This document shows positions 2,160-23,717 of a stretch of 37,509 bases of DNA, piece by piece (position 1 is the first letter of the stretch; the number at the start of each line of letters is the position of its first letter). The translations under genes and the position numbers were made by a program. The notes under the pieces were generated by a model. That model saw only the letters and a list, made by a program, of their open reading frames with translations. It was not told the DNA's origin and searched no databases. This DNA is from Robiginitalea sp. (GTDB lineage: Bacteria > Bacteroidota > Bacteroidia > Flavobacteriales > Flavobacteriaceae): NCBI GenBank assembly GCA_050290125.1, contig JBNKHB010000001.1, positions 1 through 37,509 of the forward strand. The letters run 5' to 3'.

Positions 2160-2162
2160 CAG

Positions 2163-2684: not shown

Positions 2685-2693
2685 GCCAGCGCA

Positions 2694-3254
2694 ATGAAGA
2701 AGACGCTCTATACCCTTTTAACGCTCACCGGTCTGTTGGCTTTGTCGTCCTGCCAGGACACGAAGGAACCCAACTATCAGTATATGCCCAACATGTACGA
2801 GACGGTCGGTTACGATGCGTACCAGCCATCGGCTATCATGCCCAACGGGGCTTCTGCCATGACTCCTGCGGACCATACGGTCGCACGCGGCAAGAAGCCG
2901 TACCAGCTCGAGAATACCCTGGAGGGTAAGGAACTGGCGCGGGCCATGACCAGCCCCCTGGATTCGCTCCAGCGGGAAGATAACCTGGCTGTGGGAGCTG
3001 AGCTTTACGCCATTTATTGTGCCATCTGCCACGGGCCCAAAGGGGACGGGCAGGGACGTCTGGTGCAGCGCGAAAAAATCCTGGGAGTGCCTTCTTACGA
3101 CGACGCCGGAAGGAATATTACCGTGGGGACCACCTATCATGTGATCTACTACGGCCAGAATGCCATGGGCTCTTATGCCAATCAGCTCAGCGAGACAGAA
3201 CGCTGGCAGGTATCCGAGTACGTCATGAAACTCAAGGAAGACTTAACAAACTAA
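2694..3254 (+). CDS. actE: Alternative complex III subunit E, monoheme cytochrome c lipoprotein
   Basis: Lipobox LSSC; YMPNM motif; heme motif CAICH; distal Met in AMGSYA. Confidence 0.9.
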   Translation: MKKTLYTLLTLTGLLALSSCQDTKEPNYQYMPNMYETVGYDAYQPSAIMPNGASAMTPADHTVARGKKPYQLENTLEGKELARAMTSPLDSLQREDNLAVGAELYAIYCAICHGPKGDGQGRLVQREKILGVPSYDDAGRNITVGTTYHVIYYGQNAMGSYANQLSETERWQVSEYVMKLKEDLTN

Positions 3255-3267
3255 GACAGCTTAGCAG

Positions 3268-4602: not shown

Positions 4603-4635
4603 AAACAGCATTAGCGAATTATATCCGATCCTGAT

Positions 4636-5796
4636 ATGACTGCATTATTGACGATCACTGTTTTAGTTCTGGTAGCCATCGCCATCTGGCAGATGACCAA
4701 GATCTTTGAATTTTCGCAAATCCAAACTAAAGCGGCTGATTCGGGGATTGCCAATGCCGAGGACAACAAGAACAACGGGTACCTGATGTTCGGTTTCCTC
4801 GTCTTTATCTACCTGCTCACGATTTTCTGTTTCTGGAAATACAGCAAGTTCCTGCTTCCCGAAGCGGCCAGTGCGCACGGTGGCCAGTATGACACCCTCA
4901 TGTGGTGGAGCTTTCTGATCATTTTTATCGTTCAGTTCATTACCCAGGCCCTGCTCCACTATTTTGCCTTTAAATACAGGGGTAAAAAAGGAGGGAAGGC
5001 GTTGTTCTATGCGGACAACGACCGCCTGGAGTTTATCTGGACCATCATCCCGGTGGTGGTTCTCGCAGGCCTGATCCTGTGGGGGCTCTACACATGGACC
5101 AACATCATGGACATTAACGAGGAGGACGATCCGCTGATCGTGGAACTCTACGCCCAGCAATTTAACTGGACCGCCCGCTACGGAGGCGGCGACAATGTGT
5201 TGGGAGAGGCAAACGTCCGCATGATCGACATCAACCGGGCCAATGTGCTCGGGCTGGACGAATCCGATCCGAACGGCGCCGACGATGTCATTGTAAAAGA
5301 ACTGCACCTGCCCGCCGGCCGGAAAGTGAATTTTAAGATCCGGTCCCAGGACGTTCTGCACTCCGCGTACATGCCCCATTTCCGGGCGCAAATGAACTGT
5401 GTGCCGGGGATGATCACCGAATTTTCGTTTACTCCTACCGTGACCACCGCGGAAATGCGGCAGCGGCCGGAAGTCATCGAAAAAGTAGCACGGACCAATG
5501 CCCTCCGTGCGGAGCGCGCCGCTCTGGGCGAACCCAATTCGGAGCCCTGGGAATTCGACTATGTGCTGCTCTGTAACAAGATCTGCGGCAAGTCCCATTA
5601 CAACATGCAAATGAAGATTATCGTGGAGCCCGAGGCCGACTTTGAGGCATGGCTGGCCAGCCAGCAAACCTTTGCCCAAATGGTCGCCCCTGCCGAGGAG
5701 CCGGAAGCGGAGATGGAACCGCCAATGGCCATGGAAACATCGGCGGAAGGCGATGAGGATCACGGAGGACCGGTTGAAGCCGAAGCCCACGAATAA
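4636..5796 (+). CDS. coxB: Cytochrome c oxidase (aa3-type) subunit II
   Basis: LEFIWTIIP, QFNW, DVLHS and CuA motif CNKICGKSHYNM. Confidence 0.93.
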   Translation: MTALLTITVLVLVAIAIWQMTKIFEFSQIQTKAADSGIANAEDNKNNGYLMFGFLVFIYLLTIFCFWKYSKFLLPEAASAHGGQYDTLMWWSFLIIFIVQFITQALLHYFAFKYRGKKGGKALFYADNDRLEFIWTIIPVVVLAGLILWGLYTWTNIMDINEEDDPLIVELYAQQFNWTARYGGGDNVLGEANVRMIDINRANVLGLDESDPNGADDVIVKELHLPAGRKVNFKIRSQDVLHSAYMPHFRAQMNCVPGMITEFSFTPTVTTAEMRQRPEVIEKVARTNALRAERAALGEPNSEPWEFDYVLLCNKICGKSHYNMQMKIIVEPEADFEAWLASQQTFAQMVAPAEEPEAEMEPPMAMETSAEGDEDHGGPVEAEAHE

Positions 5797-5828
5797 AGCT
5801 ATAAAAGGAAAGAATAAACAAAGAGATT

Positions 5829-7652
5829 ATGTCTGCAAGTGCGCACGCCATAGCCGATGATCACGCCCACGATCACGGACATCACCACAAGGAAACCTTC
5901 GTAACGAAGTACATCTTTAGCCAGGATCACAAGATGATCTCCAAGCAGTACCTGATTACGGGTCTGATCATGGGGACCATCGGGATAGCCATGTCTATTA
6001 TGTTCCGGATGCAACTGGCCTGGCCGGGCGAATCCTTTACCATCTTCGAAGCCCTGCTGGGCAAATGGGCGCCGGATGGGGTAATGGACGCGGACATGTA
6101 CCTGGCCCTGGTAACCATCCACGGTACCATCATGGTATTCTTTGTGTTGACGGCCGGATTGAGCGGTACCTTCAGTAACCTGCTGATCCCGCTGCAGATC
6201 GGAGCGCGGGATATGGCCTCCGGGTTCCTGAACATGATCTCGTACTGGTTGTTTTTCCTTTCCAGCGTGATTATGACCATCTCCCTGTTTGTGGAGGCGG
6301 GGCCTGCGGCGGCCGGATGGACCATTTATCCGCCCCTGAGCGCGCTGCCCATGGCACAGCCGGGTAGTGGCGCGGGGATGACACTTTGGCTGGTCTCCAT
6401 GGCCATCTTTATCGCCTCGTCCCTGCTCGGATCCCTCAACTATATCGTAACGGTAATCAACCTGCGGACCAAAGGCATGTCCATGACGCGGTTGCCGCTG
6501 ACGATCTGGGCCTTCCTGGTGACCGCTGTAATCGGTGTGGTTTCCTTCCCGGTGCTGTTGTCGGCTGCCTTATTGCTGCTTATGGACCGGAGCTTCGGTA
6601 CCTCATTCTTCCTGTCCGATATCTTTATCCAGGGCGAGGTGCTGCACTATCAGGGTGGTTCGCCGGTACTCTATGAACACCTGTTCTGGTTCCTGGGACA
6701 CCCCGAAGTATACATCGTGATCCTGCCTGCGATGGGGATCGTTTCCGAAGTGATGTCGGTGAACGCCCGGAAACCGATCTTCGGGTATCGCGCCATGATC
6801 GCATCCATCCTGGCCATTGCCTTCCTCTCCACCATCGTTTGGGGGCACCACATGTTCGTTTCCGGGATGAATCCGTTCCTGGGGTCGGTATTTACCTTTA
6901 CCACCCTGCTGATCGCCATCCCGTCAGCGGTAAAAGCCTTTAACTGGATCACGACCCTCTGGAAGGGGAACCTGCAGCTAAACCCTGGCATGTTGTTTTC
7001 CATAGGCATGGTTTCCACCTTTATCACAGGGGGCCTTACGGGGATCATCCTCGGTGACAGCACGCTGGACATCAACGTTCACGATACCTATTTTGTGGTA
7101 GCCCACTTCCACCTGGTAATGGGTATTTCCGCACTCTACGGCCTGTTTGCCGGCGTATACCACTGGTTCCCGAAAATGTTCCAGGGCCGCATGATGAACA
7201 AGAACCTGGGCTTTATCCACTTCTGGGTAACGGCCATCGGGTCCTACGGCGTTTTCTTCCCCATGCACTTTGTGGGGATGGCCGGAGTTCCTCGCCGTTA
7301 TTACGAAAACACGGCTTTCCCCATGTTCGACGAACTGGTGGACGTGCAAGTGCTCATGACCGTATTTGCCATTATCACGGCTGCCGTTCAACTGGTATTC
7401 CTGTTCAACTTTATCCGCAGCATCTTCTATGGGGTGCGCGGACCTCAGAACCCCTGGGGCTCCACTACCCTGGAATGGACCGCTCCGCAGGAGCACATGC
7501 ACGGGAACTGGCCCGGTGCCATCCCCGAAGTACACCGTTGGTCTTACGATTACAGCAAGACCTACGAGAACGGGGAATACATCCTTCCCGGCCAGGATTT
7601 TGTCCCGCAGCACATCCCGCTGCAGGAAGGCGAAGAGGAGTTGCGGCACTAA
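5829..7652 (+). CDS. coxA: Cytochrome c oxidase subunit I, type A1
   Basis: FWFLGHPEVY, VWGHHM, HDTYFVVAHFH and GVPRRY motifs. Confidence 0.96.
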   Translation: MSASAHAIADDHAHDHGHHHKETFVTKYIFSQDHKMISKQYLITGLIMGTIGIAMSIMFRMQLAWPGESFTIFEALLGKWAPDGVMDADMYLALVTIHGTIMVFFVLTAGLSGTFSNLLIPLQIGARDMASGFLNMISYWLFFLSSVIMTISLFVEAGPAAAGWTIYPPLSALPMAQPGSGAGMTLWLVSMAIFIASSLLGSLNYIVTVINLRTKGMSMTRLPLTIWAFLVTAVIGVVSFPVLLSAALLLLMDRSFGTSFFLSDIFIQGEVLHYQGGSPVLYEHLFWFLGHPEVYIVILPAMGIVSEVMSVNARKPIFGYRAMIASILAIAFLSTIVWGHHMFVSGMNPFLGSVFTFTTLLIAIPSAVKAFNWITTLWKGNLQLNPGMLFSIGMVSTFITGGLTGIILGDSTLDINVHDTYFVVAHFHLVMGISALYGLFAGVYHWFPKMFQGRMMNKNLGFIHFWVTAIGSYGVFFPMHFVGMAGVPRRYYENTAFPMFDELVDVQVLMTVFAIITAAVQLVFLFNFIRSIFYGVRGPQNPWGSTTLEWTAPQEHMHGNWPGAIPEVHRWSYDYSKTYENGEYILPGQDFVPQHIPLQEGEEELRH

Positions 7653-12745: not shown

Positions 12746-13768
12746 ATGAACGAATACCTGGATCCAACTTCGGAAGGCCTCTCACCGGAAGAACTCGATA
12801 TCGAACGGGCGCTTCGCCCGGTCTCCTTCGACGATTTTGCCGGACAGCGACAGGTTCTGGAAAACCTCCGGGTCTTTGTACAGGCTTCCAACATGCGGCA
12901 GGACGCGCTGGACCATACCCTGCTGCACGGGCCTCCCGGCCTTGGGAAGACCACCCTGGCGCATATCCTTGCCAACGAGCTCGGGGTAGGGCTGAAGGCC
13001 ACCTCCGGACCAGTGTTGGACAAACCCGGAGACCTGGCAGGCCTGCTCACCAACCTGGAGCCCCGGGATGTGTTGTTCATTGACGAGATCCACCGGTTGA
13101 GCCCCGTGGTGGAGGAATACCTGTATTCCGCCATGGAGGATTTCAAGATCGACATCATGATCGAATCAGGCCCTAATGCGCGCTCCGTGCAAATCCACCT
13201 GAATCCCTTTACCCTGGTGGGGGCCACCACGCGCTCCGGACTTTTGACCGCACCCATGCGGGCGCGTTTCGGAATTTCCAGCCGCCTGGAATACTACGAT
13301 ACCGAACTCTTGGCGACCATTGTGGAGCGTTCCGCGGAGATCCTGAAAGTGCCCATTACCGAGGATGCCGCCATTGAGATCGCCGGACGCAGCCGGGGCA
13401 CCCCCCGGATCAGCAACGCACTGCTTCGCCGGGTACGGGATTTTGCCCAGATCAAGGGCAACGGCAGCATTGATATGGAAATTTCCAAATTCGGCCTGAA
13501 GGCGCTTAATGTAGACGCCTACGGCCTGGATGAAATGGACAACAAAATCCTGGCAACGCTGATCGATAAATTCAAGGGCGGCCCGGTTGGGATCACGACC
13601 CTGGCCACGGCCGTATCCGAAAATGCGGAAACCATAGAGGAAGTATATGAACCCTTCCTCATCCAGCAAGGCTTTATCATGCGTACGCCCCGTGGCCGTC
13701 AGGTAACCGAGTTAGCCTATAGGCATTTAGGCCGAAACCAGGCCGGTGAGCAGCCAGGTTTGTTCTGA
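12746..13768 (+). CDS. ruvB: Holliday junction branch migration helicase RuvB
   Basis: LRP, Walker [10 protein letters not shown], Walker [14 protein letters not shown] and RGTPR motifs. Confidence 0.97.
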
Positions 13769-13845
13769 CAATCAGCGCTTTAACACCTCCTGAAACCCGA
13801 ACTCCGGTTCTCCGGCCCGCAAGCTCCTTTCGTTGTTTTTATTGG

Positions 13846-13911
13846 TGACACAATTCTTACAGCTATTGAATCATTTGTGGTAGCGGCACCGTGGATTATA
13901 TGTTAAATTGC
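13846..13911 (+). promoter_or_regulatory. Putative AraC-activated promoter 1 (tandem boxes plus -7-like element)
   Basis: TGACACAATTCT (13846) and TGAATCATTTGT (13867), 21 bp apart; TAAATTGC at 13904 (+37). Confidence 0.55.
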
Positions 13912-14049
13912 TGTAAAAGGCGATGGAAGAAGGAACTTAATATTTGTAGGAAAACCCTCATAATCAAACAAAAAGGAACGAGATACAGAGGTATCACCCT
14001 TAATATTTTGTAACTTATTAGTTTATCCTCCACCACAACTTTATTTACC

Positions 14050-15132
14050 ATGCCGTACTTTATGGATTTCCACATTTTTGACCAGGTAACCGTAGAGGAG
14101 GTCAAACAGGCACATGTGGCCGATCGCTCCGTGCAAAATAGGTACGGCGTAAAATACCTGCAGTTTTGGGTAAATGTGGACATGGGCACCGTATTTTGCC
14201 TGATGGAGGGTCCTAACGCGGAAGCCTGTGCGAAGGTCCACCACGAGGCGCACGGCAACGTAGCCTGCAATATTACCGAGGTACAAAGGGGATTCTACGA
14301 ACAGTTTATGGGAGAAGCCCCGCTGCTGGACCACGGGCTGGTCCTGAAGCAAAACGGAAGGGTGGATACCGGGCTGCGCTACCTAATGGTAGTGGACCTG
14401 GTGAATCTAACCCAGGTATCGCACCCCGGGGAATACCGGAAATTGCTGAATCCGTTACGTCCGCAGGCGATCGTTTGCAACACTATCCGGGAATTCAAAG
14501 GCAAGGAGATCAAGAACCAGTGGGATAACAGTATCCTGGCCGTCTTCGATGAGGAAGATTTCGCGCTGTTATGCGCCATGGAAATACAAAAACTGCTTGG
14601 GGATATCAGTGAATCCGTCCGCTATAAGATTGCCCTGGCCACAGGGCAGCCGGTTTCCGAGCGCCAGGGCTTTTTTGAGGAATCCCTGGCGGAATGCCAA
14701 CGCCTTAATGTAGTGGCGCAGGAGGGTGAGGTATTGCTGGACACCCGCATTGGCGTGTCGCAAAAAATGAAGGAACGAATGGCATTGAAGCCGGGCATCC
14801 GTCAGCTGACCAAATCGCAAAGCTCCTTTGCACAAACCTTTTTTGAGCTCGTTACCAGGCACCTGAACGACTCGAATTTTTCAGTGAATTTTATGACCTC
14901 CCAGCTTGGGATCAGCCGTCCCCAACTGTACAGGAAGATCACCGATCTTACCGGGCGTTCCCCTAACCAGTTCCTGCGTGACATCCGATTGCGGAAGGCC
15001 CTGGCTCTGATCCGTGAGAACAAGTACAATGTCTCGGAGATCGCCTATGAAGTGGGCTTCGGGAATCCATCCTATTTCACCAAGCGCTTCCAGGAAAAAT
15101 ACGGGATCTCCCCTTCCAAGGTAGCCGGTTAG
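14050..15132 (+). CDS. Transcriptional regulator: SCO4226/DUF4242 (nickel-binding-like) sensor + degenerate class III nucleotidyl-cyclase-like domain + AraC HTH
   Basis: N-term MPYFMDFH...AHVAD...TVFCLMEGP...HHEAHG; centre VVDL...SILAVF...IALATGQPV...GEVLL; C-term LGISRPQLYRKI and SEIAYEVGFGNPSYFTKRFQEKYG. Confidence 0.82.
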   Translation: MPYFMDFHIFDQVTVEEVKQAHVADRSVQNRYGVKYLQFWVNVDMGTVFCLMEGPNAEACAKVHHEAHGNVACNITEVQRGFYEQFMGEAPLLDHGLVLKQNGRVDTGLRYLMVVDLVNLTQVSHPGEYRKLLNPLRPQAIVCNTIREFKGKEIKNQWDNSILAVFDEEDFALLCAMEIQKLLGDISESVRYKIALATGQPVSERQGFFEESLAECQRLNVVAQEGEVLLDTRIGVSQKMKERMALKPGIRQLTKSQSSFAQTFFELVTRHLNDSNFSVNFMTSQLGISRPQLYRKITDLTGRSPNQFLRDIRLRKALALIRENKYNVSEIAYEVGFGNPSYFTKRFQEKYGISPSKVAG

Positions 15133-15168
15133 GCACAATGGTAACCATCCGGCCGGCAAGCCTGCCTT

Positions 15169-15234
15169 TGACCAAAATGTGCGAACATTTGAAACATTTG
15201 TACCAGTTTATCTAGCGGGGAATCCCCAATTTCG
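15169..15234 (+). promoter_or_regulatory. Putative AraC-activated promoter 2
   Basis: TGACCAAAATGT (15169) and TGAAACATTTGT (15190), 21 bp apart; CAATTTCG at 15227 (+37). Confidence 0.55.
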
Positions 15235-15301
15235 TACATATGTTTCATAAGGAGCCCGATGAGTCCACTTGGGTTTTGGTCCCTTCTTAAAATCCCGGAA
15301 T

Positions 15302-16387
15302 ATGCCACTTTACATGGACCTGCACCACATTGATCCCGACATCACGCAGGAGGACCTGTTGGCGGCGCATATGAAGGATATCGAGGTCCAGGATAAATAC
15401 GGGCTGGAGCATAAGAAATACTATGTAAACTTTGAGGAGAAAACGGTTTTCTGCCTGATCAACGCGCCCGACAAGCAATGCCTCCACAATAGCCATGCGG
15501 AGGTCCATGGCGTTGGCCCATGCAATATTATCGAGGTTTCCTCACTGACCCCAACCTTTGACTTCAATACCATGATCGGGGAGGAGGGCGGAAAGAATGA
15601 ATGGGATGTAGCCCTTACCCGCTCCGGTGAGATCGACACGGGGTATCGCAGTTTACTGCTCACGTCACTTTATGATTTTACAGGCACCCATGAAGAAGCC
15701 CAACGGGTGCTTTTCAACATGATCGAACGTTATGACGGCAGGATAGTGATGCAACCTGATGAAAAGATCATGGCGTCCTTCCTGCATGCCCAGGACGCTG
15801 TCTTCTGCGGCCAGTCCATGGCTTCCTACCTGCAGGCCACGGATCCTTCCATGGAATTTTGCATCGGGATCGTTACCGGCAAGCCAGTGGACGAAACAGG
15901 CTCCTTATTGTTCCAGGAAGCGGTGGAGCGATTGAAAAACCTGGTACTGCTCGGATCCACCGGAAAGATCTACCTGGACGCGTTCACCCAACAGCTATTT
16001 GAAAAGGGACGGGACCCTTCGGATTCCAACGAAGGGGGACGTACGCGGTTGGTGAGTCCGGATGAGATCCATTTATTCGGCAAGCTCAGCCGGATCCTTC
16101 GGGAAAACCTTCGCAATTCAGGCTTTAGCAGCGAGGAGCTCGGGAGCATGCTGGGTTTGAGCCGTGCCCAGGCCTACCGGCGAATCAAGTCCCTGACCGG
16201 GATGTCCCCGAACGTGCTTATCCGCGAATACCGCCTCCGGCGATCCCTGCCGGAACTCCTGCGCAAGGATCAAACCGTGGCCCAGGTTTCCTACGAGGTC
16301 GGGTTTAACAGCCCCACCTATTTTACCCGGATGTTCCGCAAACGCTACGGTATCCTGCCCACTGCATTCTCCAAACTGGCGAGTTGA
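15302..16387 (+). CDS. Paralogous regulator: SCO4226/DUF4242 sensor + degenerate cyclase-like domain + AraC HTH
   Basis: MPLYMDLH...AHMKD...TVFCLINAP...HAEVHG; IGIVTGKPV; QVSYEVGFNSPTYFTRMFRKRYG. Start at ATG 15302 by alignment with the upstream paralog. Confidence 0.82.
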   Translation: MPLYMDLHHIDPDITQEDLLAAHMKDIEVQDKYGLEHKKYYVNFEEKTVFCLINAPDKQCLHNSHAEVHGVGPCNIIEVSSLTPTFDFNTMIGEEGGKNEWDVALTRSGEIDTGYRSLLLTSLYDFTGTHEEAQRVLFNMIERYDGRIVMQPDEKIMASFLHAQDAVFCGQSMASYLQATDPSMEFCIGIVTGKPVDETGSLLFQEAVERLKNLVLLGSTGKIYLDAFTQQLFEKGRDPSDSNEGGRTRLVSPDEIHLFGKLSRILRENLRNSGFSSEELGSMLGLSRAQAYRRIKSLTGMSPNVLIREYRLRRSLPELLRKDQTVAQVSYEVGFNSPTYFTRMFRKRYGILPTAFSKLAS

Positions 16388-16438
16388 CAGCCTCTTATGT
16401 ACCCTAATTAAAGTGCGATCTGAGGGCTGAACAGAGAA

Positions 16439-16504
16439 TGAAACAAATGTTGCAGGATTTGATCGGATTGATACAGCCGCGGTGGCGGAAGTAGGGTACC
16501 TTTA
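16439..16504 (+). promoter_or_regulatory. Putative AraC-activated promoter 3 (tsdA operon)
   Basis: TGAAACAAATGT (16439) and TGATCGGATTGA (16460), 21 bp apart; TACCTTTA at 16497 (+37). Confidence 0.55.
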
Positions 16505-16623
16505 GAGTATAGCTTCACCCACTCCCCCGAAGCGGGCGCTACAGCAGGATTCCCCCAAATAACAGGCATGATAAAACAGGCGTATCAGGCGCCCAGGGCT
16601 CAAATTGCCCAAACTGAAATACA

Positions 16624-17700
16624 ATGGAACAAGGATTATCCGGAACAAAAAAGGCATCTGAAAAACCGCAGGAAGCGGTAGTGCGGGGTATGCGGCGGCT
16701 ATGCCGGCAAGTCGGGGTCTGTGTTTTCCTTTTGATCTCCCTGGCGCTGTGTATCGTGATAAGGGCCTTTGGGATGGGGCAGCCCGCCCAGGAAGAGGGC
16801 AGGGTGCCGGACGAGGTCTTTCTGATGAACTACGATGTGAACCGCCTGTCCGACAGCCCGAAGGACCTGGAGATCAAACTGGGATACGACATCTTCCGCA
16901 ATACCTCCCGGCATCTGGGACCGGACCAGCCGGATCCTGCGGGTCGTTTTGCGGGCAACCGCCTGGCGTGTGCCAATTGCCACCTGGATGCCGGCACCCG
17001 ACCCTATGCGGCGCCCCTGATCGGGGTGATCGAGCGGTTTCCCCAGTATCGGGGCCGTGAGGATAAGATCGGTACGATAGAGGAGCGCATTAACGGCTGT
17101 ATGGAACGCAGTATGAACGGCCGGATGATGCCAGAGGACAGCCCGGAAATGAAAGCGATGATCGCCTACCTGAAGTGGCTGGGCCGCTACGCGCCCGAGG
17201 ACGGCGCGGTAACGGGCAAGGGCTTTGCAGGTCTTGTCATACCGCAGCGGGCGGTAGACCTGGATCATGGCGAACGCGTCTTCCGCCTGCACTGTACGGT
17301 CTGCCATGGCAGCAATGGGCAGGGAAGGCTATCGGATCTGGGGGTGGGCTATCTCTACCCGCCGCTCTGGGGTAGCGATTCCTATAACAATGGGGCCGGG
17401 ATGACCAGGGTCATTACCGCGGCTTCCTTCATTAAAAGCAACATGCCTTATGGCACGCGTTACGACCGACCGGTTTTGACCGACGAGGAGGCTTTTGACG
17501 TGGCCGGGTATATCAATCAGCGGGATCGGCCGGAGAAACCTAACCGGGAGGCGGATTTCCCGGACCTCACCCGAAAACCCGTATCCACGCCCTATGGCCC
17601 GTATGCGGATACTTTTTCGCCGGAACAGCATCAATTGGGGCCGTTCCAGCCGATCATGGACTATTACCTGAGCACCTATAATCTCAATAAATCTAAATAA
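16624..17700 (+). CDS. tsdA: TsdA-type diheme cytochrome c thiosulfate dehydrogenase / tetrathionate reductase
   Basis: Two heme motifs CANCH and CTVCH; YRGR...EERINGCMERSMNG with the Cys ligand; YPPLWGSDSYNNGAGM; NMP; hydrophobic N-terminal signal or anchor. Start could be 16690. Confidence 0.82.
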   Translation: MEQGLSGTKKASEKPQEAVVRGMRRLCRQVGVCVFLLISLALCIVIRAFGMGQPAQEEGRVPDEVFLMNYDVNRLSDSPKDLEIKLGYDIFRNTSRHLGPDQPDPAGRFAGNRLACANCHLDAGTRPYAAPLIGVIERFPQYRGREDKIGTIEERINGCMERSMNGRMMPEDSPEMKAMIAYLKWLGRYAPEDGAVTGKGFAGLVIPQRAVDLDHGERVFRLHCTVCHGSNGQGRLSDLGVGYLYPPLWGSDSYNNGAGMTRVITAASFIKSNMPYGTRYDRPVLTDEEAFDVAGYINQRDRPEKPNREADFPDLTRKPVSTPYGPYADTFSPEQHQLGPFQPIMDYYLSTYNLNKSK

Positions 17701-17710
17701 ATCACACACA

Positions 17711-18388
17711 ATGAAAACATCGCAAATTCACTCAAGAAGAAATTTCATGGGCACGGTAATGCTCGGCGCAACCGCCAGCACCCTGTCCATGCTCACCGAC
17801 CCGCTCCTGGCGCGTACCACCCAATTCAGCCCAAAGCAGATGTCCGAAGCAGAAGACTGGTTTGACAATATCAAAGGGGCACACCGGGTGGTCTTTGACG
17901 GCTCCATGCCGCACTATGGCTTTCCGGTGATCTGGAACTGGGCCTATTACCTTTCCAACAATGAGACCGGCGCAGGCGACGAGGAGGTGACTGCCATGAC
18001 TGTGTTGCGGCATGACGCCATTCCCTTTGCCATGCACTCCGACCTCTGGGCAAAATACGATCTCGGCAAACGCTTCAAGATCCATCAGGCGGACGGAACA
18101 CCCTACACGCGCAATCCGTTCTACGAGCCACAGGAGGGCGATTTTCCCCTGCCGGTCATCCAGGGCATCAAGGACCTGCAGACCCGCGGAGCCATGTTTT
18201 GCGTCTGTAACCTGGCCATGGGCTTTTACAGCAACATGGTAGCCCAGGAACTGGGGCAGGATCCCCAGGCCGTATACAGTGAATGGGCCGCGGCCGTTTT
18301 GCCGGAGATCCAGGTAGTGCCTTCAGGGGTTTGGGCCCTGGGCCGTGCGCAGGAAAAAGGATGCGGTTATGTATTTGCCGGCGAATAA
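17711..18388 (+). CDS. Tat-exported DsrE-fold protein with CxC motif
   Basis: Twin-arginine SRRNFMG plus hydrophobic stretch; HRVVFD, VLRHDA, RGAMFCVCNLAM and VVPSGVWALGRAQEKG follow the DsrE/F topology. Confidence 0.65.
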   Translation: MKTSQIHSRRNFMGTVMLGATASTLSMLTDPLLARTTQFSPKQMSEAEDWFDNIKGAHRVVFDGSMPHYGFPVIWNWAYYLSNNETGAGDEEVTAMTVLRHDAIPFAMHSDLWAKYDLGKRFKIHQADGTPYTRNPFYEPQEGDFPLPVIQGIKDLQTRGAMFCVCNLAMGFYSNMVAQELGQDPQAVYSEWAAAVLPEIQVVPSGVWALGRAQEKGCGYVFAGE

Positions 18389-18409
18389 TCAACATCTAAC
18401 TGCTGAGAA

Positions 18410-18823
18410 ATGAAAAGGTATATACTGGTTGTGCTGGCCGTGATGGGCACGCTGGGTGCAACTGCCCAGGAGAATCCCATTCGGATCGTCTTTGACGTAA
18501 GCAGCGAGAACCCTGAGGTCCACCGGTCCGCTGCAAGGCATTTGAGACTGATGTCCGAATCGTACCCGCAATCCCAGTTTGAAATGGTGGTTTACGGGGG
18601 AGCTGTAGAAATGATTGACCGGAAGCGGTCGGTTGCCGGGGAAACGCTGGCGGCGGTCGCCGGAATGGAAAATGTCAACATCCTGGTTTGCCAGCAAACG
18701 CTGAACCGCCACAATATGGGGCCGGAAGACCTGATACCCGGAGTGGGTACCGTACCCGACGGCATTTACCAGATCGTTGCACGGCAACAGGAAGGCTGGG
18801 GCTATATCAAGGAAGTAAAATAA
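18410..18823 (+). CDS. Sec-exported DsrE/DsrF-like protein
   Basis: Signal peptide ending ATA/Q; IVFDV, EMVVYGGA, ILVCQQTL (conserved Cys) and VPDGIYQIVARQQEGWGYIK. Confidence 0.8.
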   Translation: MKRYILVVLAVMGTLGATAQENPIRIVFDVSSENPEVHRSAARHLRLMSESYPQSQFEMVVYGGAVEMIDRKRSVAGETLAAVAGMENVNILVCQQTLNRHNMGPEDLIPGVGTVPDGIYQIVARQQEGWGYIKEVK

Positions 18824-18842
18824 GACAGAGGGAAGCAGCACA

Positions 18843-19649
18843 ATGGAACTATTTGAAATGCTGGGCTATGCCGGAGCCGTTGCCGTAGGATTGGTCCTGG
18901 GGTTAATGGGGAGCGGGGGTTCCATAATGGCGGTGCCCATTCTCAGCTATCTGTTCCACATCAACCCGGTGACCACAACGGCGTACTCGCTATTTGTAGT
19001 GGGGACTTCCGCCTCCGTGGGTTCCCTTCGGTTCCTGAAACAGGGCCTGATCGACCTGAGGACGGCGGGCTGGTTTGCGCTGCCTGCCGTGATCGGGGTA
19101 TTTGCCGTGCGCCGTTTCCTGATTCCCATGTTGCCGTCAGAGTTCAGCCTGAATGATTTCCTGGCCATCGACCGGGACCGGGCGATCATGGTGCTTTTTG
19201 GGATCGTCCTCTGTCTGGCTGCCCTGACCATGATCCGGAACCGGGGTTACCACGACCGGATGCCGCGCCTGGCAGGCAACCCGGCAGTTCTTGTAGCCAT
19301 GGGCGCAGGGGTCGGATTGCTCACCGGGATCGTAGGTGTTGGCGGCGGTTTTCTGATCGTGCCCGTGCTGGTCGGAATTTCCGGTATGCCGATGGCGCGT
19401 GGCGTGGCTACTTCCCTGTTCATCATTGCGGTGAATGCCCTCATTGGCTTTACCGGGAATCTTGGCTACCTGGAGATCGACTGGTATTTCCTGCTCTGCT
19501 TTACGGGCCTATCCCTTGCCGGGATCCTGATGGGGACCTTTATGGCGAGGAGGATCCGGGGTTTCAGGCTTAAAAGGGGTTTCGGGTGGATGTGCCTGGC
19601 CACTGCCGGCTTCATCCTGTGCAGGGAACTCGTCGGATTCGGGATATGA
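18843..19649 (+). CDS. TauE/SafE family sulfite/sulfur-oxyanion exporter
   Basis: GLMGSGGSIMAVP and GIVGVGGGFLIVP repeats; ATSLFII; about 8 TM helices. Confidence 0.88.
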   Translation: MELFEMLGYAGAVAVGLVLGLMGSGGSIMAVPILSYLFHINPVTTTAYSLFVVGTSASVGSLRFLKQGLIDLRTAGWFALPAVIGVFAVRRFLIPMLPSEFSLNDFLAIDRDRAIMVLFGIVLCLAALTMIRNRGYHDRMPRLAGNPAVLVAMGAGVGLLTGIVGVGGGFLIVPVLVGISGMPMARGVATSLFIIAVNALIGFTGNLGYLEIDWYFLLCFTGLSLAGILMGTFMARRIRGFRLKRGFGWMCLATAGFILCRELVGFGI

Positions 19650-19691
19650 AACAAATGAACCAGCCCGAACGGAAGGTTTGGCCTACCTTAC
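19647..19691 (+). promoter_or_regulatory. Putative promoter 4 (single box plus -7-like element) for the ACAD-fold gene
   Basis: TGAAACAAATGA at 19647 (overlaps the TauE stop); TACCTTAC at 19684 (+37). Confidence 0.4.
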
Positions 19692-19734
19692 AAAAAGGCC
19701 TATTTTAAGCAATAACAACCTATATCATCAGATC

Positions 19735-20931
19735 ATGATTGAAGCAGCACAAAAGAACAAAGAAGAACTGAGCGCGCGCCTGGAATCGATATTTGCCGCC
19801 TGCGGCGAACGGGCCGCGCATTATGATGCCAACAACCTCTTCTTCCAGGAGGATTTTGACGCCCTTAAGGATGCAGGGTATCTGCTGATGGCCGTGCCGG
19901 AAGAATTCGGGGGGTATGGTATGAACGTTGCCGAGACTTCCCAACTAACACGCAAACTGGCCTATCATGCGGCGCCCACGGCCCTTGCGCTAAATATGCA
20001 CGTTTATTGGACAGGGCTTATCTCCGACCTGTGGCGCGGCGGGGACGATTCACTGGTCTGGGTGCTGGAGGAAGCGGGCAAGGGCAAGGTTTTTGCCGCA
20101 GGCCACGGAGAATCCGGGAATGACAGCCCTGGGCTGTTCTCCACCTGTAAAGCCGAAAAAGTGGATGGCGGTTACAAATTCACCGGTCATAAAATGTTCG
20201 GCAGCCTCACCCCGGTATGGGATTATATGGGTCTCCACGGGCAGGACAACAGCGACCCGGATAACCCGGTGGTGATCCACGCATTTATGCCACGTGACAC
20301 CGAAGGCTATGAGATCAAGGAGACCTGGGACGATGTACTGGGCATGCGTGCCACCCGTTCCGATGACACCATCCTGAACGGCGTGTTTATCCCTGATGAA
20401 TATATCGCCCGGAAGGTGCCTGCGGGCTTCCAGGGGGTGGACGGATTCGTGCTCGGCATCTTTATCTGGGCGCTTTTTGGCTTTGCCAATGTATACTACG
20501 GTCTGGCGCAGCGCATTTTTGACTTTGTCGTGGAGAAAGTGCAGAAGAAGACATCGATCTCTCTGGGACGCCCCTCAATGGCGTATCACCCGGGGGTGCA
20601 GCGGGATATTGCGGAAATGGTCCTTCGCCTGGAGGCGATCGGGCCTCATATCGATACCCTGGCCCGGGAATGGAGCGAAGGCGTGGACTACGGTCCGGCC
20701 TGGGGCGTTAAGATCGTGGCGGCCAAATGCCATGCCGTAGAAGGCAGTTGGGAGATCGCCGACCGTGCCCTTGATGTCCTGGGCGGCATGGGCCTCTCCC
20801 GCAAGGCCGGGTTTGAGCGTCTCTTCCGCGATATGCGCCTGGGCAAGATCCACCCGGCGAACAGTTATTATGCCCGGGAGGTGATGGCCAAAGGGATGCT
20901 GGGTCTGGACCTGGATTACCGGCCCAGGTAA
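19735..20931 (+). CDS. Acyl-CoA dehydrogenase-fold flavoprotein, probably a DszC/SfnB-like flavin-dependent monooxygenase
   Basis: VPEEFGGYG, ALNMH, GHKMFGSL, GMRATRSDD and ERLFRDMRLGKIHP (His where true ACADs have IYEGT). Confidence 0.7.
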   Translation: MIEAAQKNKEELSARLESIFAACGERAAHYDANNLFFQEDFDALKDAGYLLMAVPEEFGGYGMNVAETSQLTRKLAYHAAPTALALNMHVYWTGLISDLWRGGDDSLVWVLEEAGKGKVFAAGHGESGNDSPGLFSTCKAEKVDGGYKFTGHKMFGSLTPVWDYMGLHGQDNSDPDNPVVIHAFMPRDTEGYEIKETWDDVLGMRATRSDDTILNGVFIPDEYIARKVPAGFQGVDGFVLGIFIWALFGFANVYYGLAQRIFDFVVEKVQKKTSISLGRPSMAYHPGVQRDIAEMVLRLEAIGPHIDTLAREWSEGVDYGPAWGVKIVAAKCHAVEGSWEIADRALDVLGGMGLSRKAGFERLFRDMRLGKIHPANSYYAREVMAKGMLGLDLDYRPR

Positions 20932-20945
20932 ACGGGGGATTGGGC

Positions 20946-21551
20946 TCAGGCGGGTGGATCGCTTGTGAGGACCCCGTTAAGAAGGCATTGAAGCCCCCAG
21001 GCAAGGGTATCGTCAGCGGCTTGTGTATTCAAACCGCAAACATCTTTCATCACAATATAGGCCTCTATCCCCATCAGCAGGGTGGCGATATGCACAAACC
21101 GTTCACGGTGTTCCTCCGGAATCAACCTGCCTTTGTCCTGCAAGGCGCGCTCCAAGGTTTGAACGCGCCTTGCACCGCGTTGATTCACCTCGTTGTCTGC
21201 ACTCAGGATTACGCTGAGGTAGGTGCGGAAGGCTGCCTCATTATCTGCCGTAAGCTTGTTATAGTAATTCAGGATCCCGGCAAGGGTGGTTCTGAGATCC
21301 TCCTGTTCAAGGGTTTCCAGGATGGCGTCGGGATGCCGGGTACGCATGTCCAGGACGGCCTCTGCGGATAAGACGTCTTTGTTGGAATAATAGCGATAAA
21401 CCGTGGCCCGGCTGACCCCGGCCCGCTCGGCCACCGCTTCCAGGCTGAATTCACCCCCTTCGCGCAGCAAACTGTGCGCCGCATCCAGCAATTTATCCCG
21501 CGTGCGACGCTTCTGGCCGCTACGTCCTTTTTCCAGGTAAGTCTCTTTCAT
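20946..21551 (-). CDS. TetR/AcrR family transcriptional regulator
   Basis: HTH SLEAVAERAGVSRATVYRYY; divergent from the cupin gene. Confidence 0.92.
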   Translation of the reverse strand: MKETYLEKGRSGQKRRTRDKLLDAAHSLLREGGEFSLEAVAERAGVSRATVYRYYSNKDVLSAEAVLDMRTRHPDAILETLEQEDLRTTLAGILNYYNKLTADNEAAFRTYLSVILSADNEVNQRGARRVQTLERALQDKGRLIPEEHRERFVHIATLLMGIEAYIVMKDVCGLNTQAADDTLAWGLQCLLNGVLTSDPPA

Positions 21552-21620
21552 AAGACAAAAATCTTATAAAATTTTGATATTTCAAAATCGTTCCTTATGT
21601 TTGTGAGACAAAAATCTCAT
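21550..21620. promoter_or_regulatory. Divergent tetR/cupin control region with two TetR-like operators and back-to-back promoters
   Basis: ATAAGA-caaaaa-TCTTAT (21550-21567) and gTGAGA-caaaaa-TCTCAt (21603-21620); central palindrome ATTTTGA-tatt-TCAAAAT (21571-21588); TTTG-N19-TATGTTTG on the + strand. Confidence 0.7.
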
Positions 21621-21623
21621 AAA

Positions 21624-22082
21624 ATGAAGCAATCACAAGCCATCTGGGTGCTTGGGCACCACATCACCCCCTACAAAACCGCGGGGAATTACAATCTGGT
21701 CATAGGAGAAACGCCTGCCGGGGCACAGGGTCCGCCCCCGCACAGCCATAGCCGCTACGATGAGGTTTTCCTGATCATTGAAGGCGAGGCCGAATTTGTG
21801 ATCGACGGCCAGGCCCGAACGTTCAGGGCAGGCGAATGTGCGGATCTCCCCCGCGGCGCCATCCACACCTTTAACAATGTTTCCGACCAGCCTTGCCGTT
21901 GGGTGAACATCCATAGCCCCAAAGGCTTTCAAGGTTTTTTTGACACCTTCGGCGTACCGGAAACGGAGGCGGATGCGATCGCCAAGTCCCTGGATCCTGA
22001 ACGGATCGGACAAGTAGTGGCCCGCGCCGCCGAATTTGATATGGCGCTGCAACCACTGCCCGAAGCGGCCCGGCCGGAGTGA
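21624..22082 (+). CDS. Cupin-domain protein (QueD/quercetin dioxygenase-like)
   Basis: GPPPHSHSRYDEVFLIIEG and LPRGAIHTF (3-His-1-Glu metal site). Confidence 0.82.
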   Translation: MKQSQAIWVLGHHITPYKTAGNYNLVIGETPAGAQGPPPHSHSRYDEVFLIIEGEAEFVIDGQARTFRAGECADLPRGAIHTFNNVSDQPCRWVNIHSPKGFQGFFDTFGVPETEADAIAKSLDPERIGQVVARAAEFDMALQPLPEAARPE

Positions 22083-22139
22083 AGTTCCATAGGGCACCAA
22101 TGAACCCATTAAATCCTAAATAACTTGAACCGCTCTCCC

Positions 22140-22760
22140 ATGAGAACCATACAATTCGTACACCCCCGGATGTACCTCCTGATGATCCCCTTCCTTCTGA
22201 TTTTCCTTTCCTGCAAACAGGAGAAGGAGTCTATGACTGCCCTCTCGGAAGCCGAACGATCGGATCCCGGATCCATGTTGCCGGAAGCCGATCCGGTCAA
22301 ACGGGGCGAGTACCTGGTGTCTGTTATCGGTTGCGCCGACTGCCATACCCCTAAAAAGATGACCGAGCGGGGGCCGGCCCCCGACCTGGACAAATACATG
22401 ATGGGTTTTGACAGCTCCCGCCCGATGCCCCCGGTTCCCGACGGGGTGCCGATGGGTCCCTGGGTATTGTTTAACGGCGAACTCACCGCCGCAGTCGGGC
22501 CTTGGGGGACTTCTTACGCCGGTAATATCACCCCGCATGAAACCGGTATCGGGAACTGGACCTTTGAACAGTTCAGAAAAGTAATGAAGGAGGGGAAGTA
22601 CAAGGGAATGGACCAGGGCCGTCCGATCATGCCACCCATGCCCGTTGAGGCTTACAAAAATTTTTCGGATGATGACTTGCAGGCCATTTTCGCCTATCTG
22701 AAGTCCATCAAACCTATTGAGAATATCGTTCCGGGATATCAGCCGCCGGCGGGGAGCTGA
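22140..22760 (+). CDS. Monoheme c-type cytochrome lipoprotein
   Basis: Lipobox FLSC; RGEYLV...CADCHTP; YAGNITP...TGIGNWT; MPPMP; DLQAIFAYLKS. Start 22140 or 22170. Confidence 0.8.
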   Translation: MRTIQFVHPRMYLLMIPFLLIFLSCKQEKESMTALSEAERSDPGSMLPEADPVKRGEYLVSVIGCADCHTPKKMTERGPAPDLDKYMMGFDSSRPMPPVPDGVPMGPWVLFNGELTAAVGPWGTSYAGNITPHETGIGNWTFEQFRKVMKEGKYKGMDQGRPIMPPMPVEAYKNFSDDDLQAIFAYLKSIKPIENIVPGYQPPAGS

Positions 22761-22796
22761 CTTTCCGGATCCGGAATTTCCACCTACCTTCGGGAT

Positions 22797-23717
22797 GTGA
22801 ACCGGAAGCAATCCACTGAAATGATCAAGGCCGAGGCTGCACGCCTCGGCTTTCTGTCTTGCGGGGTCTCCCGGGCGGAATTCCTGGAGGAGGAAGCGCC
22901 CCGGCTGGAGCGCTGGCTCAAGGCCGGGATGCACGGGGAGATGGCCTATATGGAAAACCATTTCGACATGCGCCTGGACCCCCGTAAACTGGTTCCCGGC
23001 GCCAAATCCGTCATATCCCTTCTATTGAACTATTACCCTTCCGCTTCCCAAGAGGCGGATTCCTATAAGATCTCCAAATACGCCTATGGCGAGGATTACC
23101 ACCACGTCATAAAATCCAAATTGCGGGAACTGCATCACTTCATTACCGAGCAGATCGGGGAGGTGCACGGAAGGGCCTTTGTGGACTCTGCGCCCGTTTT
23201 GGACAAAGCCTGGGCGGCCCGCAGTGGCCTGGGATGGATCGGCAAGCACAGCAACCTGCTTACCAAGGAGGCCGGGTCCTTTTACTTTATCGCGGAACTG
23301 ATCCTGGACCTGGACCTGGAATACGACCACCCGGTGACGGACCATTGCGGTACCTGTACGGCCTGCATCGACGCCTGCCCCACCCAGGCCATTGTGCAAC
23401 CTTATGTGGTGGATGGCAGCCGCTGCATCTCGTATTTCACCATTGAATTGAAGAACGAGATCCCAACCGCGTTCAAAGGCCAATGGGACGACTGGATCTT
23501 CGGTTGCGATATTTGCCAGGACGTCTGTCCCTGGAACCGGTTTTCTACCCCCCACCGTGAATCCCGGTTCGAGCCCCATCCGGACCTGACCGCCATGGAC
23601 CGGGCCGATTGGGAGGAAATCACTGAGGAAGTTTTCCAACGGATCTTTAAGAAGTCCGCGGTTAAACGAACCAAATTCGAAGGGCTCAAACGGAATATCC
23701 GGTTCCTGCAGGACTAA
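22797..23717 (+). CDS. queG: tRNA epoxyqueuosine(34) reductase QueG
   Basis: [32 protein letters not shown] and [12 protein letters not shown] motifs. Confidence 0.95.

What the first reader, a model, noticed from the sequence alone, without database searches (positions are those of the whole stretch)
14050..20931. Candidate undescribed periplasmic thiosulfate/tetrathionate sulfur-relay system in a flavobacterium
Seen: a co-oriented block of two sensor-AraC regulators, tsdA-like diheme cytochrome, Tat-exported DsrE-fold protein, Sec-exported DsrE, TauE/SafE transporter and ACAD-fold flavoprotein, with gaps of only 10-21 bp from tsdA to tauE. Established: TsdA interconverts thiosulfate and tetrathionate; DsrE proteins carry sulfur on Cys, and archaeal DsrE3A reacts with tetrathionate to form Cys-S-thiosulfonate; TauE/SafE proteins move sulfur oxyanions. 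Inference: TsdA makes or consumes tetrathionate in the periplasm, the exported DsrEs capture and shuttle the sulfane/thiosulfonate, and TauE moves it across the membrane, under dedicated sensor regulators. No sox, dsr or tsdB genes are in this window. I do not know of this combination being characterised in Bacteroidota.
Basis: partly seen in the sequence, partly recalled or inferred. Interest (0 to 1): 0.85.

Follow-up and report, generated by a model that had tools for sequence, protein, structure and literature searches.

The report
Thiosulfate enzyme with exported cysteine helpers
A flavobacterium encodes a predicted thiosulfate-oxidising cytochrome (TsdA) beside two likely exported single-cysteine proteins, a grouping kept across many Bacteroidota that probably handles thiosulfate and tetrathionate outside the cytoplasm, while the neighbouring regulators and flavoprotein also occur without it.

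Summary
The seven genes are there as described, but they are not one system. The conserved core is three genes: TsdA with every catalytic residue, a Tat-signal DsrE-fold protein (Cys166) and a Sec-signal DsrE (Cys94). In 250 Flavobacteriaceae genomes, all 28 with the Tat protein have TsdA, and 26 of 28 have it adjacent. Across the phylum 16 of 20 do, in shuffled orders. The Tat protein is a remote relative of the haem-free Acidithiobacillus 'thiosulfate dehydrogenase' family NF052225, whose true members sit beside DoxD or TsdBA. TauE is accessory (6 of 26). The regulators and flavoprotein also occur without tsdA, beside non-sulfur genes, although a shared promoter motif suggests the regulators do control tsdA here. 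Best reading: membrane-anchored TsdA oxidises thiosulfate, and the cysteine proteins likely bind thiosulfonate as helpers. Direction, binding and sulfur import are untested. This scan noted the TsdA plus Tat-DsrE pairing before on other DNA. I found no paper on it. New variant of a known kind; interest 0.5.

The parts
16624..17700 (+). TsdA diheme cytochrome c (358 aa), core gene. Predicted N-terminal membrane anchor (about residues 30-48); haem 1 C116/C119/H120 with distal C159; haem 2 C224/C227/H228 with K271-S-N273-M274; active-site R145, R155, S163, R262
   Evidence: residue roles from PMC4423706 and PMC5146829 (passages)
17711..18388 (+). Tat-signal DsrE-fold protein (225 aa), core gene. 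RR at 9-10, C166 in 145 of 146 homologues; remote relative of NF052225 (Acidithiobacillus-type haem-free 'thiosulfate dehydrogenase')
18410..18823 (+). Sec-signal DsrE/DsrF-like protein of the MTH1491/ST0148 type (137 aa), core gene. C94 and Q20 in 68 of 68 aligned neighbours
18843..19649 (+). TauE/SafE-family transporter (268 aa); accessory, probably co-transcribed here (19-bp gap)
14050..15132 (+). SCO4226-like/DUF4242 + AraC regulator 1 (360 aa); variable neighbour
15302..16387 (+). SCO4226-like/DUF4242 + AraC regulator 2 (361 aa); variable neighbour, likely regulates tsdA in this genome
16442..16474 (+). 33-bp motif upstream of tsdA, shared with promoters that follow AraC2-type regulators elsewhere (score 15.0; second-best + strand site in the window); candidate regulator site
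15172..15204 (+). Same motif upstream of AraC2 (score 17.8, best in the genome); a weaker copy (13.4) lies at 13849-13881 upstream of AraC1
19735..20931 (+). Acyl-CoA dehydrogenase-fold flavoprotein (398 aa); probably a passenger, below all NCBIfam cut-offs including SfnB, DszC and 3-sulfinopropanoyl-CoA desulfinase

Best explanation
The window holds a three-gene module, tsdA plus two DsrE-fold single-cysteine proteins with export signals, that likely oxidises thiosulfate to tetrathionate in the periplasm, with the two cysteine proteins predicted to bind thiosulfonate (Cys-S-S-SO3-) as helpers. Shown: the genes, the complete TsdA catalytic and haem-ligand set, the DsrE folds, the conserved cysteines and the phylum-wide linkage. 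Inferred: TsdA is membrane-anchored and, with no TsdB found, passes electrons to the cell's cytochrome c/terminal oxidases. Its thiosulfate comes from outside or from the SQR-like, MBL-rhodanese and sulfurtransferase genes elsewhere in the genome. The Tat protein (C166) and Sec protein (C94) take up thiosulfonate from tetrathionate or from TsdA's Cys159 adduct and release thiosulfate again, which would feed or reset the enzyme and buffer a thiol-reactive product. TauE is an optional sulfur-oxyanion transporter. The regulators and the ACAD are passengers of a variable slot between ruvB and queG; the regulators have probably captured the tsdA promoter here.
For: TsdA residues: C159, R145, S163, R262 and M274 are invariant in 107 of 107 aligned Bacteroidota-linked TsdAs, R155 is R/K, and these match A. 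vinosum C123/R109/R119/S127/R224 (PMC4423706 passages). An N-terminal hydrophobic segment is present in 101 of 107. Linkage: all 28 of 250 family genomes with the Tat protein have TsdA, 26 adjacent, and 25 of those 26 have the Sec DsrE next. In the phylum draw 16 of 20 Tat genomes have TsdA within 1.5 kb, in at least four arrangements. Of 67 well-flanked genome loci, 58 have TsdA and 60 the Sec DsrE within 2.5 kb. Pairing extends to long-branch TsdA clades. 129 of 146 family members hit NF052225. Four over-cutoff NF052225 proteins are hit full-length by the family profile (E 1e-16 to 5e-19), with the Cys aligned in the three alignments printed; three of the four sit beside DoxD or c-type cytochromes (TsdA confirmed at L276). 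AFE_0042 is a Tat protein in the sulfur-induced doxDA operon (PMC2754497, table rows). DsrE3A forms Cys-S-thiosulfonate from tetrathionate (PMC4175335 passages). In 9 of 101 loci the module lies among YeeE/YedE halves, rhodanese, MBL-rhodanese or Crp genes. The genome has SQR-like, SorA-like, sulfurtransferase and YeeE genes on contig C84.
Against: No activity, expression or binding was measured. 14 of 42 TsdA-bearing family genomes have no Tat protein; a porin-linked TsdA clade and three nested losses show TsdA does not need it. Distant Tat homologues had TsdA in the locus in only 7 of 71 metagenome loci, many of them short, and scanned neighbours showed no other recurring sulfur gene. DsrE2B, a DsrE with Cys, reacted with none of six sulfur compounds (PMC4175335), so a fold and a Cys do not prove carrier chemistry. 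The closest structures (MTH1491, ST0148) have no known function. Direction is unresolved: the K-x-N-M haem 2 motif equals that of the C. jejuni tetrathionate reductase (PMC5146829), although a TsdB-linked proteobacterial TsdA also has N-M. No thiol-disulfide reductase recurs beside the Bacteroidota module except a thioredoxin in 3 loci, so how the cysteines would be recycled is unexplained.
Confidence: 0.5

Rival explanations
1. The same three-gene module runs mainly the other way: TsdA reduces tetrathionate (respiration at low oxygen, or detoxification), and the DsrE-fold proteins capture tetrathionate as thiosulfonate and protect periplasmic thiols.
For: Haem 2 environment K271-x-N273-M274 equals C. 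jejuni K252/N254/M255 (PMC5146829 passages); N in 99 of 107 homologues. No TsdB acceptor was found in the genome. DsrE3A reacts with tetrathionate, not thiosulfate (PMC4175335).
Against: In C. jejuni the N254K change did not switch direction (PMC5146829), and a TsdB-linked TsdA also has N-M, so the residue is not diagnostic. The window encodes alternative complex III and an aa3-type oxidase, which fits aerobic electron disposal. No electron donor to TsdA was identified.
Confidence: 0.2
2. The Tat protein is itself a second, haem-free thiosulfate dehydrogenase, as reported for Acidithiobacillus AFE_0042, and uses TsdA (or DoxD elsewhere) as its electron acceptor.
For: Remote homology to NF052225 with the Cys aligned. 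The review says AFE_0042 is about 25 kDa and reduces neither ubiquinone nor horse cytochrome c, so a physiological acceptor is missing (PMC6335251 passages). True family members lie next to DoxD or TsdBA.
Against: The window protein scores 13 bits against a 300-bit cut-off. It has no haem motif. TsdA here keeps its own full active site, so it does not look reduced to an electron acceptor.
Confidence: 0.12
3. One reading: all seven genes form one dedicated system in which the DsrEs shuttle sulfur to TauE for passage across the membrane, under sulfur-sensing regulators, with the ACAD taking part.
For: Gaps of 10-21 bp from tsdA to tauE. The regulator(s)-tsdA-Tat-Sec-tauE-ACAD order recurs in L075, L078, L086, G615, G621 and G670. 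A regulator-linked motif precedes tsdA in 7 of 7 regulator-adjacent loci against 2 of 111 others, and precedes several ACAD genes.
Against: TauE follows the core in 6 of 26 family loci and 8 of 67 genome loci. AraC2-type regulators lie away from tsdA in 7 of 13 genomes, beside BBE oxidoreductases, nitrilases or a hydrolase. The ACAD is in 6 of 250 genomes, 2 with no tsdA match. The closest relatives G016 and G017 keep the core but show no TauE or ACAD beside it (the G017 contig is only 2.8 kb). Most of the seven-gene loci fall in one TsdA clade.
Confidence: 0.1
4. The DsrE-fold proteins are general periplasmic thiol-redox or stress proteins that stay near tsdA by ancestry, with no sulfur-transfer role.
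For: 64 of 71 distant homologues showed no TsdA in their locus. Second stand-alone copies exist in G463, G532, G542 and G438. The closest structures are of unknown function.
Against: Adjacency survives reversals of order and strand across several families. Related proteins pair with an unrelated thiosulfate oxidase, DoxD.
Confidence: 0.08

Closest known systems
TsdA thiosulfate dehydrogenase/tetrathionate reductase (A. vinosum 4wq7, 4v2k, 4wqc; M. purpuratum TsdBA 5lo9; C. jejuni TsdA)
   Same: Two CXXCH motifs, distal Cys on haem 1, Met on haem 2, Arg/Arg/Ser/Arg active site.
   Different: Predicted N-terminal membrane anchor; Asn in place of the A. vinosum Lys before the Met; no TsdB found; two DsrE-fold partners encoded next to it.
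Acidithiobacillus ferrooxidans TSD (AFE_0042; NCBIfam NF052225) in the tsd-sbp-doxDA cluster
   Same: Tat signal, similar size, homologous over the full length by profile with the Cys aligned, encoded beside a thiosulfate-oxidising enzyme and a transporter.
   Different: Far below the family cut-off (13 against 300 bits). Paired with TsdA rather than DoxDA. No solute-binding protein or Dsb/TlpA-type reductase beside it. Has a second, Sec-exported DsrE.
Metallosphaera DsrE3A/TusA thiosulfonate relay
   Same: DsrE fold (3mc3, Z 9.5) and a conserved Cys; the proposed chemistry is borrowed from it.
   Different: Cytoplasmic, Cys-X7-Cys motif, linked to sHdr and TusA. The window proteins have one conserved Cys at that position, export signals and no TusA or sHdr beside them.
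SoxAX-SoxYZ
   Same: A SoxA-family cytochrome encoded beside an exported Cys protein; suggests a carrier model.
   Different: No SoxY found and no over-cutoff SoxB. TsdA keeps Ser163, the TsdA-specific residue thought to hold the second thiosulfate where SoxA makes room for the SoxY arm (PMC4423706).
MTH1491 / ST0148 DsrE-like proteins (1l1s, 2pd2)
   Same: Closest solved structures for both proteins; Cys aligned with the MTH1491 Cys.
   Different: Those are short archaeal proteins of unknown function; the Tat protein carries insertions of about 60 residues in all.

Membership tests
TsdA | Two CXXCH haem motifs | tested here: met
   C116-C119-H120 and C224-C227-H228
TsdA | Cys distal ligand on haem 1 with Arg109, Arg119, Ser127 (A. 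vinosum precursor numbering) | tested here: met
   C159, R145, R155, S163 at the same spacing
TsdA | Met distal ligand on haem 2 | tested here: met
   M274, preceded by N273
TsdA | Thiosulfate/tetrathionate interconversion and its direction | not testable with these tools
   needs enzyme assay
TsdBA | tsdB upstream of or fused to tsdA | tested here: not met
   No cytochrome gene upstream. A TsdB-like query gave only a 73-aa hit at E 6e-4 in the 83%-complete genome.
Acidithiobacillus-type TSD (NF052225) | Score over the 300-bit cut-off | tested here: not met
   13 bits, E 0.046; best family member E 8.3e-20
Acidithiobacillus-type TSD (NF052225) | Tat signal, homologous domain, aligned Cys | tested here: met
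   Family profile hits four over-cutoff members at E 1e-16 to 5e-19; AFE_0042 itself was not available to compare
Acidithiobacillus-type TSD (NF052225) | Adjacent solute-binding protein and DoxDA | tested here: not met
   No hit with two SBP queries or with DoxD in an incomplete genome
DsrE/DsrF-like fold | Fold and conserved Cys | tested here: met
   Tat protein Z 13.5, rmsd 1.6, 107 aligned; Sec protein PF02635 over cut-off; profile-profile 96.7% between the two
DsrE3A | Cys-X7-Cys motif and linkage to dihydrolipoamide dehydrogenase/sHdr/TusA | tested here: not met
   No second Cys at +8 in either protein; no such neighbours recur
DsrE-type sulfur carrier | Forms and transfers Cys-persulfide or thiosulfonate | not testable with these tools
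   needs mass spectrometry
Sox system | SoxYZ and SoxB | tested here: not met
   SoxY 0 matches; SoxB best 78 bits against 550; genome 83% complete
SCO4226 nickel-binding equivalog (NF033706) | Score over cut-off; nickel binding | tested here: inconclusive
   Domain over the Pfam cut-off but 59 and 39 bits against 125 for the equivalog. H8, H23, C51, H65 invariant in 30 regulators. The sensed ligand is unknown.
Sulfur-related ACAD-fold enzymes (SfnB, DszC, 3-sulfinopropanoyl-CoA desulfinase) | Score over equivalog cut-off | tested here: not met
   59/431, 70/850 and 69/600 bits

The most novel reading that the evidence does not exclude
The Tat-exported DsrE-fold protein is a general periplasmic thiosulfate carrier, a functional stand-in for SoxY, that plugs into either TsdA or DoxDA; the Acidithiobacillus 'thiosulfate dehydrogenase' is then such a carrier rather than a free-standing enzyme. 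In Bacteroidota it forms a two-protein periplasmic relay with the Sec DsrE that takes thiosulfonate from membrane-anchored TsdA, so that tetrathionate is not a dead end in Sox-less heterotrophs.
Probability: 0.25. Interest if true: 0.8.

Novelty: new variant of a known kind. Interest (0 to 1): 0.5.

Why it matters
TsdA is usually treated as a one- or two-protein route ending at tetrathionate, and what heterotrophs without SoxB or TetH do with it is open (raised in PMC12345210, passages). About one in nine sampled Flavobacteriaceae genomes (28 of 250) carries this module. If the cysteine proteins are carriers, they would be DsrE-type sulfur carriers working outside the cytoplasm, which I found no paper on. 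They would also offer an explanation for the acceptor-less Acidithiobacillus TSD. Cultured Flagellimonas, Maribacter and Winogradskyella strains carry the core genes, so it is directly testable.

Tried and rejected
Complex prediction of TsdA (56-358, two haems) with the Tat protein (40-225): no answer, score 0.00 in two runs, controls not folded. RNA runs: no RNA holder listed. Sigma-70 promoter and terminator scan: at chance level (9 against 6.3; 7 against 9.9). Obligate hand-off of sulfite to a SorA-like enzyme: rejected as obligate, since it is in 14 of 28 Tat genomes against 56 of 222 others (kin are not independent). Haem 2 Asn as a marker of direction: rejected. Functional link to the nearby ACIII/aa3 genes: not claimed, as they flank the ruvB slot with or without the module. 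The window Tat protein alone found nothing in Pfam, PDB sequences or plasmids. The Atlas gave only unnamed clusters and a DsrE lead at 0.84 for homologue P0011. A direct six-frame NF052225 search found nothing in the genome and 1 of 120 phylum genomes. The TsdA tree is the quick version, 101 rows, with 21 near-duplicate Flagellimonas-type rows and duplicate loci dropped; most rows were found through the Tat gene, so the label counts are biased. Literature: ten full-text searches listed no paper on tsdA paired with exported DsrE-fold proteins or on TsdA in Bacteroidota; most hits were seen only as listings and abstract starts. Not held and not seen: Kikumoto 2013, Kurth 2016 JBC, Brito 2015, and a flavobacterial thiosulfate-oxidation paper sought under a recalled id. 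These and their supplements may list tsdA neighbourhoods. No supplements were read.
Full report
Observation. The window is contig C1 of an 83%-complete genome whose nearest named relatives in the searches are Flavobacteriaceae. Between ruvB and queG lie, on the + strand, two SCO4226-like/AraC regulators, a diheme cytochrome, a 225-aa Tat-signal protein, a 137-aa DsrE, a TauE and an ACAD-fold protein, then a convergent TetR, a cupin and a monoheme cytochrome. Gaps from tsdA to tauE are 10, 21 and 19 bp; the regulators are 169 and 236 bp from their neighbours, and the ACAD ATG (19735) is 85 bp after tauE.

The cytochrome is a TsdA. It matches solved TsdAs at E 9e-53. C159, R145, R155, S163 and R262 correspond to A. 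vinosum C123, R109, R119, S127 and R224 (PMC4423706, passages). All but R155 (R/K) are invariant in 107 aligned homologues. Haem 2 reads K-S-N-M, as in C. jejuni K252/N254/M255 (PMC5146829, passages). That paper found N254K did not switch direction, and a TsdB-linked proteobacterial TsdA also has N-M, so direction is open. An N-terminal hydrophobic segment (KD19 2.7 at residue 30; at least 1.6 in 101 of 107) suggests a membrane anchor. No clear TsdB was found in the genome.

The two small proteins have the DsrE fold. The Tat protein has no Pfam hit, but its model (pLDDT 89.8) matches ST0148 (Z 13.5, rmsd 1.6, 107 aligned), MTH1491 (Z 12.2), YchN and DsrEFH, well above unrelated rows (Z 5.5 or less). 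C166 is kept in 145 of 146 homologues and the twin arginine in 136. The Sec protein is MTH1491-like with C94 and Q20 in 68 of 68. Glutamine after the cleavage site as a Bacteroidota export sign is recalled, not from a call. The two conserved cysteines align with each other. That this Cys is the DsrE active-site position is inferred from the fold; no residue-level alignment to DsrE was printed.

What travels together. In an even draw of 250 family genomes, 42 have TsdA and 28 the Tat protein. All 28 have TsdA, 26 adjacent; G575 has both genes at contig ends and G660 has them apart (coordinates compared by eye). The Sec DsrE follows in 25 of the 26. In 400 phylum genomes 20 have the Tat protein, 16 with TsdA within 1.5 kb, in tandem either way round, convergent, or with TauE between. 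Of 80 genome loci kept from 115, 67 had 2.5 kb on both sides: TsdA 58, Sec DsrE 60, TauE directly after 8 (14 within 7 kb), SCO4226-AraC 4, ACAD 3 (many are close kin). In 9 of 101 loci the module lies among YeeE/YedE halves, rhodanese, MBL-rhodanese or Crp genes. Against obligate partnership: 14 of 42 TsdA genomes lack the Tat gene, a separate TsdA clade pairs with an OprD-like porin, and three TsdAs inside the Tat clade have lost it. Among 71 metagenome loci of distant homologues only 7 showed TsdA, though many contigs are short; Pfam on 81 ORFs from 15 of them showed no other recurring sulfur gene.

What does not. TauE follows the core in 6 of 26 family loci (short flanks could hide some). 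SCO4226-AraC regulators occur in 59 of 250 genomes. The closer AraC2 type occurs in 13, within about 6 kb upstream of tsdA in 6, and in the other 7 beside FAD/BBE oxidoreductases (4), nitrilases (2) or a hydrolase and the ACAD (1) (only 8 candidates per genome were scored). The ACAD is in 6 of 250: three beside the module, one on another contig, and two in genomes with no tsdA match, where it sits beside a SCO4226-AraC. The ruvB-queG interval holds different cargo in different genomes. A 33-bp motif trained on six promoters that follow AraC2-type regulators away from tsdA gives its three best + strand window scores just upstream of AraC2, tsdA and AraC1. It precedes tsdA in 7 of 7 regulator-adjacent loci against 2 of 111 others. 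Six of those seven share one TsdA clade, the motif occurs 21 times in this genome at that threshold, and the training set is small. So the regulators probably control tsdA here, as one of several kinds of target, and nothing shows that they sense sulfur. SCO4226 itself binds nickel weakly (PMC4186839, passages).

The nearest characterised relative. Earlier scan notes pointed to the Acidithiobacillus haem-free 'thiosulfate dehydrogenase'. I tested this. 129 of 146 family members hit NF052225 at E 0.05 or better (best 8.3e-20); the window protein scores only 13 bits against 300. Four plasmid proteins found with member P0180 score 375-418 bits and are hit full-length by the family profile at E 1e-16 to 5e-19, with the Cys aligned in the three alignments printed. 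They lie in Tat-SBP-DoxD (L275), DsbC-DsrE-TlpA-SBP-Tat-SBP-TsdB-like-TsdA (L276), DsbD-DsbA...Tat-SBP-SoxB-like-two cytochromes (L273) and a DsbA-linked locus with neither (L274). AFE_0042 is annotated as a Tat protein in the sulfur-induced doxDA operon (PMC2754497, table rows). A review says it is about 25 kDa and reduces neither ubiquinone nor horse cytochrome c (PMC6335251, passages). The primary paper was not held. One protein family thus sits beside two unrelated thiosulfate oxidases, which fits a shared substrate-side helper better than a coincidence.

Mechanism. Most likely (0.5) TsdA oxidises thiosulfate to tetrathionate at the outer face of the inner membrane and feeds the respiratory chain. 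The genome has SQR-like, SorA-like, sulfurtransferase, YeeE and MBL-rhodanese genes that could supply thiosulfate (SQR and SorA below equivalog cut-offs), and no SoxY, DoxD or true SoxB was found. The two cysteine proteins would bind thiosulfonate as DsrE3A does (PMC4175335, passages) and feed, reset or protect the enzyme; this step is inference. DsrE2B did not react in that study, which shows the limit of the analogy. The bolder SoxY-like model, in which TsdA loads the Tat protein directly, is weakened by the retained TsdA-specific Ser163. Rivals are tetrathionate reduction (0.2), a second dehydrogenase (0.12), the full seven-gene relay (0.1) and no sulfur role (0.08).

Novelty. TsdA, TSD and DsrE carriers are each known. 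Ten literature searches listed nothing on this pairing, but key subscription-era papers were not held. The scan has recorded the TsdA plus Tat-DsrE pairing several times in other phyla. What this window adds is the Bacteroidota form: anchored TsdA, no TsdB or binding protein found, a second Sec DsrE, optional TauE, and local capture by SCO4226-AraC regulators. New variant of a known kind; interest 0.5.

Noticed in passing
L023:9874-11211, L266:8095-9438, L267:5302-6645, L268:5469-6809, L269:5328-6674: A second Flavobacteriaceae TsdA clade (46-59% identical to the window's) lacks the Tat protein and is followed by a ~447-aa protein, OprD-like in 3 of 5 scanned. In G016 it faces molybdenum-cofactor genes and a TauE; in G460 it lies among SQR-like, rhodanese, MBL-rhodanese and DsrE genes. 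This genome has a 29% homologue of the porin on C97.
   Followed up: partly
G621:C16:172309-176671; G615:C7:76670-79963; G655:C133:37629-39794; G575:C187: Tandem arrays of two to four SCO4226/DUF4242-AraC regulators, with invariant H8, H23, C51 and H65 in the sensor domain; ligand unknown.
   Followed up: partly
window 13768-22797: The ruvB-queG interval is a variable slot: P450, FAD/BBE oxidoreductase, SnoaL-like, TetR-cupin, monoheme cytochrome, ACAD or the tsdA module in different genomes.
   Followed up: yes
G000:C84 (L270:1259-6438): Cluster of sulfurtransferase, monoheme cytochrome, SorA-like molybdoenzyme with a twin-arginine-like start, SQR-like flavoprotein and split YeeE/YedE. The SorA-like gene is in 70 of 250 family genomes at 65-79% identity, below all named cut-offs.
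   Followed up: partly
G000:C381:603-1142; G000:C326:705-1034: A further DsrE-family protein with an apparent signal peptide, and a stand-alone SCO4226-like protein.
   Followed up: no
L120:7001-7671; G543:C19:120546-121202; G475:C23:169856-170694: Broken copies: a frameshifted Tat gene, a Tat match with an internal TAG, and a split tsdA; may be decay or assembly error.
   Followed up: no
L221, L225, L222: Outside the close family: sdhA-sdhB-tsdA-Tat-...-nuo order in L221/L225, and a Tat homologue directly before a fused cbb3-type oxidase in L222.
   Followed up: no
G000:C147:469-3512: Two ORFs with 23 and 16 CXXCH motifs: large multiheme cytochromes, unexpected to me in an aerobic flavobacterium.
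   Followed up: no
window 420-7652: Alternative complex III (ActC, D, E) and aa3-type oxidase subunits, 9 kb upstream of tsdA; a possible electron sink, not shown to be linked.
   Followed up: no
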